A DNA stretch of 62,910 bases, the filler included, from Globobulimina sp. (lineage: Eukaryota): the NCBI GenBank assembly GCA_003354225.1. It is 57 parts of 57 records of this genome, joined end to end, with 100 filler letters (N's around TTAATTAATTAA, not from the genome) between each part and the next. Parts side by side here need not be neighbours in the genome. Positions count along the whole stretch, not along the records: positions 51,962 to 52,966 come from PIVH01026048.1; 56 more parts are not named here. One strand, 5' to 3'. Position numbers and translations under genes: made by a program. Position 1 is the first letter of the stretch; each line of letters begins with the position of its first letter. A model generated the notes under the pieces. It was not told where the DNA came from and did not search any database. It saw only the letters and a program-made list of their open reading frames with translations. Below are positions 1,887-56,281 of this stretch, piece by piece.

Positions 1887-2112
1887 TTAACTAAAGATGT
1901 CTACTAAGCGAACATATTTCTCACGTTGCACAACATTGTCGTAATAAACCAACTCTTTCCAACGCTGTATTGCGTTTTTCAAGGTAATAAATGGATTTCT
2001 TTCGTTGGCTAATTGACATTCAATGCTATGCTTTGTATTCCCATCAATTTTTTGATGTTTTCTACAACAATAAAATACAGATTTGCATTTTGCACATTTA
2101 CGCAACTTAACA
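1887..2112 (-). CDS. MYND zinc-finger protein, 3' fragment
   Basis: CAKCKSVFYCCRKHQKIDGNTKHSIEC. Confidence 0.75.
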
Positions 2113-18067: not shown

Positions 18068-18702
18068 TTAAAGCTTATTCCCCCAAATAACAAAATAAAT
18101 AATTCCTGTTAAACAAATCCCACCAACCATATTGCCTAAAGTTACAGGAATTTGATTCCATAGCAACCAATCAGCTGCGTTATAAGCATCACATCCATAA
18201 GTTAAGCCAGCTGGAAATAAAAATAAATTTACAATGCTGTGTTCGAACCCTAATGTAATAAATAATGTGACAGGTATATACATTGCGAATATTTTACCCA
18301 TTGTTGATTTGCTTGAAAATGATAATAAAACACCCATTGTTACCATCCAATTACACATTACCCCATTAAATAACGACGCGAACCATCCGGCTCCTCCGCC
18401 CGTAAGCTTGTATTCGATTGATTTGGCCGTTGTAACTTTACATAAAACATCTTGAAATGCATGATATTTTGTTGGATCTCTGTGTCCGAAATGCGTCATA
18501 CCGCCCCATAAAAAAAATAAATATAACAATGTACCCATAAAATTGCCACAATAAACAACCAACCAATTAATTAATATCATTTTGATGGATAATTCTTTTT
18601 TATCTTTCTTTGACGCTAAATATGCCATTGGTAAAAGGGCAAAATTGCCGGTGGCCAAGTCATTGCCCATTAATATTAACATTACAAAACCAGTCGGAAA
18701 TA
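18068..18702 (-). CDS. Formate/nitrite transporter (FNT family), 3' part
   Basis: DLATGNF, GNFMG, GVMCNWMV, GFEHSIVN, WNQIPVTLGNMVGG. Confidence 0.95.
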
Positions 18703-19913: not shown

Positions 19914-20588
19914 GGATTTCAAACAATTTCTCGATCCAGAATTGGGACTTTGTTATACATTCAATGGTGAACAACATTCCAAATATAATATAACCAACCC
20001 TGGACCGGATACAGGTCAGTAATTATTTCATTCAGCATGGGCCAGTGAAGGTCCACACTTGTCCCATACTTTGGTAGAAAGCCACCCATCTATCTATTTG
20101 CTATTGCCTACTTCCTTTCCAACGACCTGGGTTTTAGTTTTACATCTATGACCCCCTTAATATGAGAAAAATTATTTTCACCGTAGACGGGGATGTTAAC
20201 CACTCACCATCACCTGTGCAGCTAACAAACAGTATAACTGCTGTTCACTGTGATCTCATATTAAGAAATATTTTATTAAGGCCTTCATATTACAATCGTA
20301 TCCAATGACTCTGAATATCTTTATTCAACTGGTAAGGTTGGCGTTCGTGTTGTTATCCATGAAAGAAATAGTCATCCATTTCCAAATGTGGATGGTTTCA
20401 GTTTTGGTCCTGGAACAAAGGCATTAGTGGCAATGCAATATGTAAATATGACAGTTTTACCATACTATTCATGTTGAAATTGTACTTGTTTTTAGTCCCA
20501 ATCAAACCTCTTGGGTCCGCCATATGGACAATGTGAACCTGAAGATAATGTACGAGACAGCTACATATTTGAAGGATATTCCCTAGAG
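19914..20588 (+). CDS. DEG/ENaC sodium channel, three internal exons (19914-20014, 20281-20441, 20496-20588)
   Basis: Spliced: FLDPELGLCYTFN...GPDTGL...GVRVVIHERNSHPFP...GPGT...LGPPYGQC...YSLE; all junctions GT-AG. Confidence 0.88.
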
Positions 20589-29861: not shown

Positions 29862-30812
29862 GCAAACCTGTCATACTGACCGGATCTCAGGTACTGTTAC
29901 ACGCATACATGTATATCCAAGTGTTAACACATAAGGGGTCTTCGGTGCGTGCAGCAAGATATACTGGAGGCATCGGGCCTTGAACAGAGATACTTCCTTC
30001 TTTATCGATGTTGAGCCCTTGTTCCACCAACACTTTTGTATTATGAATACGTTGCGCCCCGCTTGTAATCTCTTCGCCGCGCAAGAAAAAATCATAAGAG
30101 TTACTAACTAATGGATTATACGGATCAGGCATCGTATAAAATGGCCTGGCCGCCAATGGGTATTTATCCACACAGTAAAACTCTGTGCCATGTTTTTGTG
30201 CCACCAATCTGCCCAACAATTTCTCTTCGGGCGTACTAAAATCCTTTGACAAACCCATCAATAATGCTTCTGCCTCTTCAGTAGCACCATCCGCCAACAA
30301 TTTATCATAATATTCTTGCGTCATTTGCTTGGCTTCTTTGAAGGTCAAAATTAATAATTTATCATCGAATTTCAACGGCTCAAACGGATATTGCGCATTG
30401 ATGGCCTCCATCTCGGCTTGGTAATATTTGTTCAAATTCTTAAAAATGTACACAAACATATTACCAATGATGGCTAATACTTCGTGATAATGTTCTCGAA
30501 ATTCCATCTCCAAATCTAAGCCCGTAAACTCGCATAAATGTCGGTGTGTGTTGCTATCTTCCGCTCGGAACACTGTATACAATTTAAACATTTTTCAAAG
30601 TAAAAAAAAAAAAACTTGAGCCTGTCACAATGTCACATGCCTGGACCCACTTCGAATACACGAAAGAAGTCTGAACAAATCCCCATTTGTTTGTAAAGTT
30701 GCGGCGACTGTGCCAAAAATGCATCTTTGCCAAAATATTGTAATTTAAAAACATTTGCGCCGCCCTCAGACGCTGCACCGATTAATTTTGGTGAATGTAT
30801 CTCTATAAAACC
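29862..30812 (-). CDS. DARS1: Cytosolic aspartyl-tRNA synthetase, internal part; GC-AG intron 30573-30640
   Basis: [69 protein letters not shown]. Confidence 0.97.
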
Positions 30813-30966: not shown

Positions 30967-31971
30967 ATTGCCGATCGAGATGAAAATTTACGCACTGCCA
31001 TAGACAGTTTATCCACGCCATTGTTCCAAAACGATGAAGACGGCGCGCCCTTTTCTATTCGCTGTGTATTGGATCCATTGTCGCCACAAACACAGCGGAT
31101 CATATCTTTTATCGACGAGCTGTATGATTATCATAATTTATTTGACATTGAAATATTATTCAACCCGGTGACCGATATGAAAGAGGAAATAAATCGGTAC
31201 GGCTTCCCGAAGAAATTGGGCAGGTTTTATCGCTATGTGTTCAATCCGAATAATTACATTGCGAACGGGGAGGATAATTCGGATAAGGCTGTATTTGTAA
31301 ATATGCCCTCTGATGATGTGCTGACTATGGGTATCACCGATACGCCCGGCACGTGGCTGTATGAGTCGTTAGTGTGCAAATACGATTTGGATAATTTATT
31401 ATTATCCAACATCGAGGTGGCTCAAGGGAATAAAGGGAATGCGTTAGCGGTAAATTATCATTTAACAAGGATGCTAATTCAAGGACAATGCTTTGATGAA
31501 AAGTCTCAACCTGTGCCAGGATTGCAGTTGGAATTAAGGAACAACACAAATCTATTTGATGCTACCATTGCTATGCAGACATTGGGGTACTGGCAACTTA
31601 AAGGTATGCTGTGTGACAGTGTCATGCATTCTTTGTTTGAAGTTTTGGAGTAAAAATTAACAAAAATCACTCTCACGCAGCAAACCCGGGCGTGTGGGAG
31701 ATTCGGTTGAGAGAAGGTCGAACCACTCAAGTTATGGAGGTGGATGCCAATAAAACCAAGTCTGATGATACGTTACTGATTGAAGATGAAGATTCATTGA
31801 CCATCAAAGTTGTACTAAATTCATTCACGCGCACTCCATTCCGATTGCGTACCAAACACAAAGTTGGCATGGAAAAGGAAGAGTTGTTGCCACAGCTAAC
31901 CGAGGAACAAATTGAAGCGGCCGAACAACACCGATTGAAGGAAAAACAGGAAAAACTGGAGAAACGAAAGA
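30967..31971 (+). CDS. UGGT: UDP-glucose:glycoprotein glucosyltransferase, internal part; intron 31604-31680
   Basis: VLDPLS, RFYRYV, YDLDNL, PGLQLEL, TIAMQTLGYWQLK|ANPGVWEIRLREGR. Confidence 0.92.
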
Positions 31972-42016: not shown

Positions 42017-42460
42017 GGTCTGGAAGAAGAGAAGATCTCCACTGATGGGCTGTTCTTTGGGCTGGGTGGTAATTCGTTAAATATTATGGCCCTGGCCTCA
42101 CGGATTCACCGTGAATTTGATGTCTCTCTTGACTTGAAACAGGTGTTCAACAATGCAACCATTAAGAAGCAGGCAGAGTTAATTGGTTCGGAAAGCGGGG
42201 TTCCTACGGAGCATTTTCATTCGATTGAACCGCGGTTTATGTTCAATTCGAACTTGTCACATTTGCAGGTTGTTGGTGAGGACAGCGCAGAATTGCAAAG
42301 TCCGGCTAGTAAAGAGTTTAAATTTGAAGATAGTGCTCATGGCGACGAGGAGTATATGGATAAAGTGAAGGAAGAATTGGAGGATATACCAAGCAATGTT
42401 GATAAAAACGTTGAACAAAAAGGAATGGAAGAACAAGGACTGTTGGAATTCGAACCTTAA
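42017..42460 (+). CDS. NRPS-type peptidyl carrier (PP-binding) domain followed by an unrelated acidic tail, 3' part
   Basis: ISTDGLFFGLGGNSLNIMALASRIHREFDVSLDLKQVFNNATIKKQAELI. Confidence 0.85.
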   Translation, partial: GLEEEKISTDGLFFGLGGNSLNIMALASRIHREFDVSLDLKQVFNNATIKKQAELIGSESGVPTEHFHSIEPRFMFNSNLSHLQVVGEDSAELQSPASKEFKFEDSAHGDEEYMDKVKEELEDIPSNVDKNVEQKGMEEQGLLEFEP

Positions 42461-43121: not shown

Positions 43122-43959
43122 TATTCAAGCAAATTTAATGCAATTTGAATTCATTCGTAGCCATAAATCACTATCTCACACATTATATTTGATCGAGACA
43201 GCAATGAAAAGCAAAAAAAATCACATTGTGTATCATAACGGATTGAGGAACATTTTAGATGTGTTGATATCTAATCCATTAATCCTGAAATATATGTTCC
43301 AGTCCGCTCATACGCATAAAATATGGCAATCCTTAATGTTTTGTATAAACTATATATTATCTTTTAATATTCCATTGTTGACTGACCACGAATCTGCCAC
43401 AAAGCATGAATGGTTTGAATTATATCTGGATTTTACCGCTCTTATCAAATATTGGCAACATAATCATTTATTATACTTTCTTGAAAATTGCTTTTGTGTG
43501 TTTATGTATAACACATTTGCGGAATATCAGACATTTATACGCTGTAAGTATTTGGATGTGGAAATGTACAGAGATAATATCTGTGATTCTGATTCACCAC
43601 TATTTACTTTATGGACTTCATTCGATTTACATTCAAAAATTATGTGTCGTGCGCAAAAAATCGATAATGCAAAAGGTAGCAAATTAGTGAAATTATTTAA
43701 CCAACAAATTGAAGAATTATTCGCACAAAGTATTGAGGCGTCTACTTATTTGACGTTAGCAGCGGGGCATAATGAAACATGTGATGATAAATTTAACAAC
43801 AACACGTATTGTGGCTATCCATTTTGTGATAAAAGAAAATCGGAGTTTATACATAAAAATAAATGCAAGAGATGTAAATTGATTAGATATTGTTCACGAA
43901 AGCATCAAAAAAAACATTGGAAAATGATTCATTCTCAACACTGCCAACCATATTATTAA
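43122..43959 (+). CDS. C-terminal MYND zinc-finger protein, 3' part
   Basis: CGYPFC...CKRCKLIRYCSRKHQKKHWKMIHSQHC. Confidence 0.85.
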
Positions 43960-51861: not shown

Positions 51862-51982
51862 NNNNNNNNNNNNNNNNNNNNNNNNNNNNNNNNNNNNNNN
51901 NNNNNTTAATTAATTAANNNNNNNNNNNNNNNNNNNNNNNNNNNNNNNNNNNNNNNNNNNNTAAAAAAATGAGAGTTTATAG

Positions 51983-52966
51983 TTTTTCCCATTTCACTGG
52001 GCCTCGGATAAAGATTTGTTTCAATATAATTCAGTTTGGCCCGAACCACAGGACTACGTCGAAGTCAAAGAAAATGACAAACAAACATTCATGAAATTCT
52101 ATGTCAGTGAGCGAGCATCAAAACCCACTTTTAATCTGTTGAAAAACCTTGTCGATTACACAAAAATTGATTGTGTGGTAAGTGAAATTTAGTCTGCATA
52201 ATATAAGAGCAAATTTTTTCTGTTAGGTTATGTGGCATTCATGCTCAAAATTTTTCGAGCTTGTTATGGAATTGGAAAATATTAACCCATTGATTCATAT
52301 TAGCATCAGTTCACTAACCTCAATGATTTATCGAACTAATCATTTACCAAAAGACATCAGTTTGGCAATTATAACCGATCAAGACTGCTCGGCCATATGG
52401 AAGAATGTGCAGTCAAAAATAGCCTATAAATATTTATCGTATGTGCAAACGCATGAAATTAGCGATTTGAAACATAGCGGAAATTCGGGTCGCGAATTTG
52501 GTATCAGTTCATACAAAGCAGATGGTGTGTCAGAAAGCAGACGTTTGGTGATCGAGGTAGAGTAGAATATAATTAAAATCTACTTTTTCCACTCGTGTAT
52601 TTTAGGTTGCGTCTTGCATGCATCATGCTCATCTCGATCCCATTTGCAAATATTACTTTGCAGGAAAGGAAAGTGCGCGCTTCCCTTTAGACAATGGAAT
52701 GACATATGAAGACGTTTTTGCAAAGTTTATGTCAAGAATCGATGAAATTATCAAACAGGGGTGGAGTGTTCGTTTGATTTGGTGTTGCCAAATTGAAACT
52801 GATAGGTCAAAAAACCAAAAAATGGATTCTTTTTTTAAAACTTATGAGAAGGACGAAACGGAGATGGAGCCGATTCAGGCGAGAGACGCACTATTTGGGT
52901 GAAAAGATTGCTTGCTATATTGCATTCATCATTATTTATCTATTCTAGAGGTAGAGTTGATTCGGG
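51983..52966 (+). mobile_element. Polinton/Maverick-type protein-primed DNA polymerase B fragment with Vsr-like insertion, split by introns 52178-52226, 52557-52605, 52899-52948
   Basis: Spliced frame open: FFPFHW..., DYTKIDCV|VMW (ExoIII), QSKIAYKYL, YKADG...VIE|VASCMHH, GWSVRLIWCC, PIQARDALFG|GRVD. Confidence 0.85.
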
Positions 52967-55276: not shown

Positions 55277-55451
55277 AAAATATGTTTGATCTCTCATTTA
55301 ATGCTACGGTTTCCATCTGACTTTTTATTATATTTTTAATCATTTGCAATTCCATAAATTGTAACATTGGAATAAGATCATTGACTGATGTGGCTTCATC
55401 AATTCGTTGATAGATCAGATTTTTATGATTATGATACTCTGCGGCTGCCAT
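55277..55451 (-). CDS. Hypothetical protein, 5' end
   Basis: MAAAEYHNHKNLIYQRIDEA..., open to the contig edge. Confidence 0.45.
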
Positions 55452-55563
55452 TGTCAAAAAGGTTAATTGTCAGACGGTTCTCAAAAACAACACTTCACTC
55501 CTTTCATTAACTTTTGCATTCTGTCTTGCAAACCACACAGCGAACCCTAAAGAGTTCAAAAAC

Positions 55564-56281
55564 ATGACATCAACTCCACCATTATCAACTGGTGAAAAAG
55601 CACTGGATCTAGAACAAGAACCATTGGATTTTTTCACTATGCCAATGCCAGACGCTCTTACCATAACTCGTCAGCAAACAGATCAAACCATGGCCAATGA
55701 CGTAACCCCAATCGAACCGGATAATGGCAACAATGCATTTGCGATGCCCGCACTCATAACCCGTCAAAAAACAGATAACACTCCGCATAGCACCGAAGCA
55801 AATGCAACCATCCCATCCATGAACAATAACAATAGCAATAATGATGAAGCGGAAATTATTTTGCCGCCTACATTATTGCGACAAAAGACTGACAACACAC
55901 TACACAGCAAACAAACTCGTCAGCAAACAGATGATACGAAAAACAATAATAAAAACGAGCTGTATGAGATGGCCACTTTAGATACGTTAGATATGCCGCT
56001 ACAAATAAGCCGACAACAAACGGATCAGACAGATAAAGACATTCATAACAAATCGCCATCGCCATCGCCAGATATGCCCTCAGTGAATGACTTATTATTA
56101 GCTCCAATAACCCGACAGCAAACTGATCAGAATATCAATGAAACTGATATGGAAGTAATGGAAGTTGACCATGATAGCCAGGCGAATGAAGCAGTGTTAT
56201 TCGATTTTGATAGCATGAATCTCGAACGTCAACAAACTGATATATTGGTGGAAAAAAAAGAGTTGGTTGGGGACGATATTG
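55564..56281 (+). CDS. Disordered protein with seven RQ(Q/K)TD repeats, 5' part
   Basis: ITRQQTD, ITRQKTD, LLRQKTD, QTRQQTD, ISRQQTD, ITRQQTD, LERQQTD. Confidence 0.75.

What the first reader, a model, noticed from the sequence alone, without database searches (positions are those of the whole stretch)
51983..52966. Polinton/Maverick-type protein-primed DNA polymerase interrupted by regular 49-50 nt spliceosomal introns
Seen: three complete GT-AG introns (49, 49, 50 nt) and a fourth acceptor at 51981-51982. Removing them gives an uninterrupted frame of about 278 aa that rebuilds motifs exactly across junctions (IDCV|VMW, VIE|VASC, DALFG|GRVD). Established: FP..F/ExoIII, a Vsr-like insertion (DG...E...H...W) and RDAxxGGR are features of Polinton/adintovirus pPolB, whose genes are generally intronless. 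Inference: either a host-domesticated viral polymerase or an intron-rich Polinton-like lineage. An intron roughly every 200-330 nt with an intact frame argues against simple decay.
Basis: partly seen in the sequence, partly recalled or inferred. Interest (0 to 1): 0.75.

Follow-up and report, generated by a model that had tools for sequence, protein, structure and literature searches.

The report
Intron-split Polinton-type DNA polymerase gene fragment
A 1-kb contig from an AT-rich, probably animal genome holds part of a virus-like (Polinton/Maverick) DNA polymerase gene that is cut by short host-style introns yet still looks functional, which is unusual because such genes are usually described as intron-free.

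Summary
The window is 57 unrelated ~1005-bp contigs glued by N/TTAATTAATTAA linkers, and the finding is one whole contig (51962-52966). Removing three GT-AG segments (49, 49, 50 nt; GC 27-28% against 37-40% in the exons) gives 278 codons without a stop.

No single exon reaches Pfam. However, exon 2 finds 17 proteins by phmmer, and 10 of them pass Pfam's DNA_pol_B_2 cut-off. Exons 1 and 3, which were not used in that search, match the flanking parts of the same homologues, and the exon ends abut to the residue.

The stretch between the SLx2h and GGR motifs is a Vsr-type nuclease insertion. That insertion is the published mark of group I Mavericks. It is supported by a profile search against PDB (E 1.6e-4) and by a fold search (Z 8.4).

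In the only run that holds the contig, 6 of 6 exonic variants are synonymous.

The closest relatives read straight through the positions of introns 1 and 2, but seem to be interrupted elsewhere.

Splicing is not shown because no RNA run was available, and there are no flanks. Whether this is an intron-bearing element or a domesticated gene therefore stays open.

The parts
51962..51982 (+). 3' end of an upstream intron (acceptor AG at 51981-51982); the contig starts inside it
   Evidence: In-frame TAA and TAG lie just upstream of 51983. Homologues continue upstream without a break, e.g. P0004 residues 1-37.
51983..52177 (+). Exon A, 65 codons. It starts with the FFPF motif and ends with the ExoIII-type Y-x3-D (Y at 52157-52159, D at 52169-52171).
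   Evidence: ORF. blastp to P0004 38-98 (E 1e-9) and P0002 10-70. This exon was not used in the homologue search. The family consensus is YCxxDV.
52178..52226 (+). Intron 1, 49 nt, GTAAGT...TTAG, phase 0. It has an in-frame stop if retained.
   Evidence: It is present in contigs of run X1, including the variant form (records 3-5). It is absent from 6 of 6 homologues that cover the site.
52227..52556 (+). Exon B, 110 codons. It carries the SLx2h-type motif SISSLTSMIY (52302-52331) and the first half of the Vsr-like insertion (from about 52401).
   Evidence: phmmer gave 17 hits, best 5e-23. tblastn hits lie only on this contig.
52557..52605 (+). Intron 2, 49 nt, GTAGAG...TTAG, phase 0. A stop follows after two codons if retained. 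It lies inside the Vsr-like insertion.
   Evidence: It is spanned by X1 record 7. It is absent from 5 of 5 homologues that cover the site: P0001, P0002, P0004, P0021, P0022.
52606..52898 (+). Exon C, 97 codons plus 2 nt. It carries the second half of the Vsr-like insertion (to about 52815), then the approach to the GGR (pre-motif A) region.
   Evidence: blastp to P0004 210-298 (E 4e-14), P0008 and P0015. This exon was not used in the homologue search.
52899..52948 (+). Intron 3, 50 nt, GTGAAA...CTAG, phase 2. A TGA follows at once if retained.
   Evidence: The joined reading gives F-G-G-R, which aligns with GGR of P0004, P0010 and P0017. X1 contigs gave no cover here.
52949..52966 (+). First 18 nt of exon D (G-R-V-D-S); the contig ends here
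52401..52815 (+). Vsr-type (PD-(D/E)xK) nuclease insertion in the polymerase, split by intron 2
   Evidence: A profile that includes these two window pieces hits Vsr structures 1odg/1vsr/1cw0 at E 1.6e-4 to 2.2e-4, ranks 1-3 of 10. The AF2 model of the matching P0004 segment has pLDDT 85.8. Foldseek top hits are 3r3p_A and 1cw0_A. VIA-align gives 1cw0_A Z 8.4 with 112 residues aligned.

Best explanation
The contig is a piece (ExoIII motif to the GGR pre-motif-A region) of a working gene for a group I, Vsr-bearing Polinton/Maverick-type protein-primed DNA polymerase. It sits in nuclear DNA of an AT-rich, probably animal host.

Proposed working:
- The gene is transcribed in the nucleus, and four short U2-type GT-AG introns (three complete, one cut by the contig end) are spliced out. 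This step is inferred.
- The mRNA then encodes an uninterrupted exonuclease-Vsr-polymerase protein.
- Polintons copy themselves as DNA, so introns would travel with each copy.

I therefore read this as a low-copy, long-resident Polinton-like lineage that gained host-type introns and is still held by selection, rather than as a dead relic.

Shown: exon-intron anatomy, homology, the Vsr fold, and synonymous-only variation. Inferred: splicing, membership of a mobile element, and polymerase activity.
For: Anatomy and chance control.

Homology:
- Exon 2 finds 17 proteins at E<=1e-3. Ten of the 17 pass Pfam's cut-off for PF03175, and 12 of 17 are listed at E<=0.01.
- Exons 1 and 3 independently match the adjoining parts of the same proteins, with junctions abutting to the residue.
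- tblastn with 20 proteins hits only this contig of the window; 15 of the 20 gave hits.

Vsr insertion: and passages in PMC10328495 and PMC10748475.

Selection:
- Of 7 variant letters in run X1, 6 are exonic and all 6 are synonymous. The seventh is at intron position +3.
- Only 19% of all possible single-base changes in these exons are synonymous, so 6 of 6 has P of about 5e-5.
- A more diverged piece (9 of 66 letters differ) has a 27-nt loose end. Read by eye, it changes 8 bases but only one residue.

Several diverged forms in one sample, and a clade of five relatives 49-81% identical to each other, fit an element family.

Composition: GC3 is 0.39, within the 0.23-0.53 of 12 host-type ORFs, and codon-fraction r is 0.77.
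Against: - No RNA run holds the stretch, so splicing is unproven.
- Pfam finds nothing on single exons.
- Only 1005 bp are available. No integrase, capsid, ATPase, protease or TIR can be looked for, and no other contig of the window matches the polymerase.
- Published intact Mavericks of vertebrates and nematodes have intronless core genes. Introns are usually taken as a sign of domestication (PMC10675990 passage).
- The two near-identical forms have similar depth, 3.6 against 6.5. With synonymous-only differences, that looks as much like two alleles of a host gene as like two element copies.
- X1 may be the source of the assembly, so it is not independent support.
Confidence: 0.5

Rival explanations
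1. Domesticated gene: a Polinton-derived pPolB-Vsr gene was taken over by the host. It is now a resident, intron-bearing, low-copy nuclear gene (or small gene family) kept for a host function, with no mobile element around it.
For: - Four introns fall within 1 kb of a gene type reported intronless in intact elements.
- The two forms have roughly equal depth and differ only at synonymous or intronic sites, as alleles under purifying selection would. An older paralogue also differs mostly at synonymous sites.
- Codon use is host-like.
- The introns are unrelated to each other, so they are not copies of an introner.
- The sister clade also appears intron-interrupted at its own conserved place: 4 of 4 sequences lose homology just after SCFHHAHL[DE].
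Against: - Copies of active elements also show purifying selection between lineages.
- Intron positions are not shared with the closest relatives: intron 1 is absent in 6 of 6 and intron 2 in 5 of 5 that cover the sites. That is odd for orthologues of one host gene.
- The relatives are 45-52% identical and diverse, like an element family.
- No synteny, expression or full-length data exist.
- Runs X2 and X3 of the same sample hold none of the contig's words. The tool warns that this is no proof of absence.
Confidence: 0.33
2. Decaying relic: the three segments are small insertions in a dead polymerase fragment that only happen to look like introns, and nothing is spliced or expressed.
For: No RNA evidence exists. 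Only a fragment is seen. Some relatives in the database look degraded, for example P0009, which skips a large part of the alignment.
Against: - All three segments start with GT and end with AG at exactly the residues where uninterrupted homologues continue.
- They have near-equal length and lower GC.
- The frame runs 278 codons without a stop in 36% GC DNA, against a maximum of 162 in 100 shuffles.
- 6 of 6 exonic variants are synonymous, P about 5e-5.
- Conserved motif residues are kept: the Y and D of ExoIII, SLx2h, GGR, and the D-G and C/H/H of the Vsr core (by eye).
Confidence: 0.05
3. Not the main organism's gene: the contig comes from another eukaryote in the sample (food, symbiont, parasite), so the introns reflect that organism's genome. 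This is not exclusive of the readings above.
For: - The assembly holds contigs from 26 to 46% GC.
- It holds gene types unusual for animals (Form_Nir_trans, PP-binding) beside an animal-type ASC channel piece.
- Runs X2 and X3 of the same sample show none of the contig's words.
Against: - GC, GC3 and codon use lie within the range of the host-type ORFs.
- Short GT-AG introns are also found in two host-type genes of the window: UGGT at 62-68 nt and tRNA-synt_2 at 83-89 nt.
- Depth of about 4-8 is unremarkable, but there is no host contig to compare it with.
Confidence: 0.12

Closest known systems
Group I Maverick/Polinton pPolB with the ~140-aa VSR endonuclease insertion (Kapitonov and Jurka 2006, as cited in PMC10328495; vertebrate Mavericks in PMC8097293)
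   Same: It is of the DNA_pol_B_2 type. The order is FFP(H/F) motif, ExoIII Y-x3-D, SLx2h, Vsr-like insertion, then GGR. The insertion has the Vsr fold and the Vsr-like D-G ... C-x2-H-x-H core.
   Different: Intact vertebrate elements have intronless ORFs, whereas this gene has four introns within 1 kb. The usual GCFWHGC..C core reads SCMHHAHLDPIC here and SCFHHAHL in the sister clade. The element context is unknown.
Nematode and mollusc Polinton pPolB2 with a VSR domain, and nematode Mavericks (PMC10748475; 10.1101/2022.07.12.499685)
   Same: It is a protein-primed PolB carrying a VSR nuclease domain in an invertebrate-type host with short introns.
   Different: In nematode Mavericks the core genes are described as intronless, and only cargo genes have introns.
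Introner-bearing maverick-polinton-like proviruses of dinoflagellates (PMC11957031 / PMC12166617)
   Same: These are Polinton-like elements that carry spliceosomal introns.
   Different: Those introns are copies of repeated introner elements. The three introns here share only 14 invariant columns of 70, GT and AG included, so they are not copies of one element. The host here looks animal, not dinoflagellate.
Foreign or viral genes that gained host introns after endogenization (discussed for Cymbomonas viral regions in PMC10675990; for bdelloid rotifers this is recalled, not read here)
   Same: A gene of viral descent has host-style short introns, host-like codon use and signs of selection.
   Different: No case of a protein-primed polymerase kept in this way was found in the literature searches. 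Domestication is not shown here.

Membership tests
[quoted passage not shown] | The window's own product matches the Pfam model above its cut-off | tested here: not met
   0 of 3 single exons (65, 110, 97 aa) matched at E<=10. The joined product could not be handed to the Pfam tool, so the test was limited to short pieces.
[quoted passage not shown] | Significant, collinear similarity to proteins that do pass the Pfam cut-off | tested here: met
   Exon 2 gives phmmer 5e-23 to P0001 and 6.9e-9 to P0004. P0004 scores 118 bits and P0010 122 bits on PF03175. Ten of 17 hits are above the 25.8-bit cut-off. Exons 1 and 3 match P0004 at 1e-9 and 4e-14 in the right order.
[quoted passage not shown] | Exonuclease motif ExoIII (Y-x3-D) | tested here: met
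   Y-T-K-I-D at 52157-52171 aligns with the family consensus YCxxDV. The motif name is recalled and is also given in PMC10748475.
[quoted passage not shown] | ExoI, ExoII and polymerase motifs A, B, C | not testable with these tools
   These motifs lie outside the 1005-bp contig. No genome is held and no related DNA was found.
Group I Maverick/Polinton polymerase | VSR-like endonuclease insertion of about 140 aa in the polymerase | tested here: met
   Profile A4, which includes the two window pieces, hits 1odg/1vsr/1cw0 at E 1.6e-4 to 2.2e-4 as the top 3 of 10. A model of the P0004 segment (pLDDT 85.8) gives Foldseek 3r3p_A E 0.032 and 1cw0_A E 0.058, and VIA-align 1cw0_A Z 8.4, rmsd 4.8, 112 aligned. 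The model is of a homologue 35-37% identical to the window, not of the window's own protein.
Polinton/Maverick element | Linked rve-type integrase, packaging ATPase, adenain-type protease, major and minor capsid genes, TIRs and 6-bp target-site duplication | not testable with these tools
   The contig ends inside the gene on both sides. Neighbouring segments of the window are unrelated contigs.
Spliceosomal (U2-type GT-AG) introns | GT...AG borders whose removal restores a frame collinear with uninterrupted homologues | tested here: met
Spliceosomal (U2-type GT-AG) introns | The spliced form is seen in RNA | not testable with these tools
   No RNA holder was listed. The one holder (X1) gives unspliced contigs only and no joints.
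Introners (intron-generating repeats) | The introns are copies of one repeated sequence | tested here: not met
   The three introns aligned share 14 invariant columns of 70. Only this contig could be compared, not the genome.

The most novel reading that the evidence does not exclude
An animal (the mix of an ASC channel, very short introns, ~30% GC and bacterial-type transporter genes would fit a bdelloid rotifer; that fit is recalled and not established) has domesticated a Polinton protein-primed polymerase with its Vsr nuclease. It keeps the gene as an intron-bearing nuclear gene family: two alleles plus an older paralogue in this sample, and a sister clade with its own conserved intron elsewhere. 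This would be the first host-kept protein-primed DNA polymerase.
Probability: 0.3. Interest if true: 0.75.

Novelty: new variant of a known kind. Interest (0 to 1): 0.5.

Why it matters
Polinton/Maverick core genes are treated as intronless. Pipelines even use prokaryote gene callers on them for that reason (PMC10120064 passage), so an intron-split polymerase lineage would be missed or reported as short fragments. That is exactly how the relatives appear in the protein collections: ORFs of 139-288 aa on contigs of 1.1-2.3 kb.

If the gene belongs to a mobile element, it shows that such elements can pick up and carry host-type introns in animals. If it is domesticated, it would be a new kind of host gene: a protein-primed polymerase fused to a Vsr nuclease. 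Either way the case can be tested with one RT-PCR and one long-read locus.

Tried and rejected
- No whole genome is held for the window.
- The search for homologous proteins found nothing with exon 3 (longer) or with exon 2 (near). The word index is too coarse at 45-50% identity.
With A3 it found no relative in metagenome contigs (263 pattern matches, 0 confirmed) or in viral contigs (55 matches, 0 confirmed).
- A degenerate DNA pattern for INPLxxxSISSLTxx[IV][YF]R found 0 matches in metagenome contigs, viral contigs and genome contigs. No DNA of any relative could therefore be read, and intron positions in relatives are inferred from protein ends only.
- Sequencing runs: no RNA holder was listed. 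Only X1 holds the stretch. X2 and X3 had next to none of its words. X1 contigs gave no cover after about 52845.
- Rfam on the whole window gave 0 matches.
- The Atlas search with a host PHO4 piece gave no usable host taxon. With exon 2 it gave only scores below 0.9.
- Host taxon: not resolved beyond 'eukaryote, probably animal'.
- First intron scan of the other contigs was too permissive and was replaced by a stricter one. Only two host introns could be verified by Pfam continuity.
- Literature: Kapitonov and Jurka 2006 (PMC1450207) and Krupovic and Koonin 2015 (PMC5898198) are not held. I cannot say what the 2006 paper reports about introns in invertebrate Polintons. My statement that intron-split animal pPolB genes are not described rests only on searches and on the passages read. 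No supplements were opened.

Full report
WHAT THE WINDOW IS. The 62,910-base window is not one locus. It is 57 segments of 1004-1006 bp, in order of length, joined by N44-TTAATTAATTAA-N44 linkers (112 N runs). The finding is exactly one of these contigs, 51962-52966 (36% GC), so nothing beside it is genomic context. No whole genome is held.

Other contigs carry ordinary eukaryotic ORFs:
- PEX11, PI3K_rbd, UGGT, PHO4, Na_Ca_ex, tRNA-synt_2, Peptidase_S10, Vac14 and Pam16.
- An ASC/DEG-ENaC channel piece, which by general knowledge is an animal-type family.
- Form_Nir_trans and PP-binding ORFs, which are unusual for animals.

I could not name the host. 'AT-rich eukaryote, probably an animal' is as far as the evidence goes.

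THE OBSERVATION. It is right to the base.
- Exons: 51983-52177, 52227-52556, 52606-52898 and 52949-52966.
- Introns: 52178-52226 (49 nt), 52557-52605 (49 nt) and 52899-52948 (50 nt). All are GT...AG with a T-rich stretch before the AG, and all bring a stop within 0-5 codons if retained.
- An AG at 51981-51982 follows in-frame stops, so a fourth intron is cut by the contig start.
- The joined frame has 278 codons and no stop. Intron GC is 0.27-0.28 and exon GC 0.37-0.40.

As a control I let a dynamic programme remove up to three GT-AG pieces of 45-55 nt.
- The + strand gives 278 codons and the - strand 79.
- 100 shuffles give a mean of 97 and a maximum of 162.
- The best of the 64 other contig-strands with a plain ORF of 120 codons or fewer gives 235.

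WHAT THE PROTEIN IS. Pfam sees nothing in the single exons (0 of 3), and I could not hand a joined sequence to the tools. phmmer with exon 2 against 1.84 billion representatives gave 17 hits at E<=1e-3, the best being P0001 at 5e-23 and 46% identity. Twelve of the 17 have a PF03175 (DNA_pol_B_2) match at E<=0.01, and 10 of the 17 are above Pfam's cut-off. These include P0004 (557 aa, 118 bits) and P0010 (620 aa, 122 bits). One hit (P0014, CARDB repeats) is unrelated.

Exons 1 and 3 took no part in that search, and they match the adjoining parts of the same proteins:
- P0004 residues 38-98, 101-209 and 210-298.
- P0002 residues 10-70, 73-184 and 185 onward.
- P0001 up to residue 127, then from residue 128.

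The exon ends therefore abut to the residue in proteins whose ORFs run straight through. This is the strongest evidence that the three segments are true introns.

tblastn with 20 proteins hits only this contig of the window (15 of 20 queries).

By eye, the conserved landmarks are in place:
- FFPF, where the family has FFPH.
- Y-x3-D of ExoIII.
- SISSLT, the SLx2h motif.
- F-G-G-R across intron 3.

THE VSR INSERTION. A profile was built from the region between SLx2h and GGR. It used 13 rows: a P0004 segment, the two window pieces and 10 relatives. It hits the three Vsr endonuclease entries first (1odg, 1vsr, 1cw0; E 1.6e-4 to 2.2e-4); the next hit has E 0.036.

An AlphaFold model of the P0004 segment (pLDDT 85.8) gives these matches:
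- Foldseek: the Vsr-related homing endonuclease I-Bth0305I (E 0.032, prob 0.99) and Vsr 1cw0_A (E 0.058, prob 0.96). None reaches E<=0.001.
- VIA-align: 1cw0_A at Z 8.4 (rmsd 4.8, 112 aligned). This is tied with a mitoribosomal protein at Z 8.6 and followed by other Vsr-like nucleases at Z 7.2.

A ~140-aa VSR insertion is what separates group I from group II Mavericks (passage in PMC10328495 citing Kapitonov and Jurka 2006). VSR-bearing pPolB2 is described in a marine nematode and molluscs (PMC10748475).

In the window the usual GCFWHGC..C core reads SCMHHAHLDPIC. The Asp of D-G lies 15 residues before the Cys, as in P0004. The match to Vsr's catalytic Asp is my reading from memory.

IS IT ALIVE? 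One public run (X1; kind unknown; possibly the assembly's own source) holds 82% of the contig's words. No RNA run does.
- Its contigs are unspliced and show no joints. Records span intron 1 and intron 2.
- They show 7 variant letters. Six are exonic and all six are synonymous in the spliced frame. The seventh is intron 1 position +3.
- Only 19% of possible single-base changes in these exons are synonymous, so 6 of 6 has P of about 5e-5.
- The variant and reference unitigs have similar depth, 6.5 against 3.6.
- A third, more distant form (9 of 66 letters differ) runs on into 27 letters. Read by eye, these change 8 bases but one residue.

The frame has thus been under purifying selection both recently and over a longer time. 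Composition is host-like: GC3 is 0.39 against 0.23-0.53 in 12 host-type ORFs, and codon-fraction r is 0.77.

THE INTRONS COMPARED.
- The three introns are not copies of one sequence: 14 invariant columns of 70. They are therefore not introners of the kind found in dinoflagellate polinton-like proviruses (PMC11957031).
- Two host-type genes of the window have verified GT-AG introns of 62-68 and 83-89 nt, with Pfam domains continuing across them. Short introns are thus normal in this assembly. The sample is too small to say that 49-50 nt is the mode.
- A profile search added P0021 and P0022 to a sister clade, which now holds P0001, P0002, P0003, P0021 and P0022. These are 49-81% identical to each other and 45-52% to the window.
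- Every homologue that covers the sites lacks intron 1 (6 of 6, P0004 included) and intron 2 (5 of 5).
- All 4 clade members that reach SCFHHAHL[DE] lose homology right after it, while the window and P0004 carry on.
- P0021 has a 15-16-residue insert (RYV...CCFF) where P0004 has none. That is what an in-frame read-through of a ~48-nt GTATGT...polyT-AG intron would look like.

This last group of points is inference from protein sequences only. No DNA of any relative could be fetched. If the inference is right, the whole clade is intron-bearing, with positions that differ between branches.

READING. The gene is real, of Polinton/Maverick group I type, and selected. Its introns were gained after the split from its known relatives.

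I give 0.5 to an intron-bearing, low-copy Polinton-like lineage. Its introns would ride along because the element copies itself as DNA, and its genes would be expressed through the host's nuclear splicing machinery. I give 0.33 to a domesticated host gene or small gene family. The allele-like pair and the introns point that way. The unshared intron positions and the diverse relatives point the other way. Simple decay gets 0.05. A contig from another organism in the sample is possible (0.12) and does not exclude the other readings.

LITERATURE. Passages read:
- Vertebrate Mavericks are intronless (PMC8097293).
- Nematode Maverick core genes are intronless, while cargo genes have introns (10.1101/2022.07.12.499685).
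- Endogenous viruses of protists 'do not contain introns' (PMC10120064).
- Introns in viral regions are taken as a possible sign of domestication (PMC10675990).
- Introners occur in dinoflagellate proviruses.

Searches turned up no description of spliceosomal introns inside an animal Polinton polymerase gene. [quoted passage not shown] 2007) could not be read, and no supplements were opened, so earlier mention cannot be excluded.

VERDICT. This is a new variant of a known kind. It is of moderate interest, limited by the 1-kb fragment, the unnamed host and the lack of RNA evidence.

Noticed in passing
window 1-62910: The window is 57 separate contigs of 1004-1006 bp in order of length, glued by N44-TTAATTAATTAA-N44 linkers. 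Neighbouring segments are not syntenic, and GC ranges from 26 to 46% between contigs.
   Followed up: yes
window 18071-18700 (-) and 42017-42457 (+): There is a Formate/nitrite transporter ORF (E 8e-50) and a PP-binding (carrier protein) ORF. They sit in an assembly that also holds an animal-type ASC/DEG-ENaC channel piece (20280-20474) and PI3K_rbd. This points to either horizontally acquired genes or more than one organism in the assembly.
   Followed up: partly
window 30967-31970 (+) and 29890-30812 (-): Two host-type genes have GT-AG introns verified by Pfam domain continuity. UDP-g_GGTase profile positions 1-44 then 45-107 lie across a 62-68-nt intron. tRNA-synt_2 positions 40-99 then 93-248 lie across an 83-89-nt intron.
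   Followed up: yes
runs X2, X3: Two larger runs filed under the same sample as X1 hold next to none of the contig's words. It could not be checked whether they hold the host contigs, so the meaning is open: different library, different individual, or a contig that is not fixed.
   Followed up: no
proteins P0017, P0021, P0009: More distant pPolB relatives also look interrupted. P0017 has a 28-residue insert between EFHG and CVWHGC. P0021 has a 15-16-residue insert whose ends would translate from GTATGT... and ...T-rich-AG. P0009 jumps from the Vsr core to the polymerase palm region.
   Followed up: partly
proteins P0023-P0026: This is a separate group of very AT-rich, N/K/Y-rich pPolB fragments. 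They share the SLSISSLT motif but go straight on to FFGGH/FYGGH without any Vsr insertion. One lies on a 62.9-kb contig.
   Followed up: no
window 55277-56281 (-): In the splice control this strand reached 235 codons after up to three 45-55-nt GT-AG removals, from a plain ORF of 88 codons. It lies opposite a 282-codon ORF on the + strand, so it may be an antisense artefact or a second intron-rich gene.
   Followed up: no
window 1926-2111 (-) and 43123-43956 (+): Two different contigs carry zf-MYND fingers. On the first, the finger ORF is followed after a 51-nt GT-AG candidate intron by a PEX11 ORF. That would be an odd fusion or two close genes.
   Followed up: no
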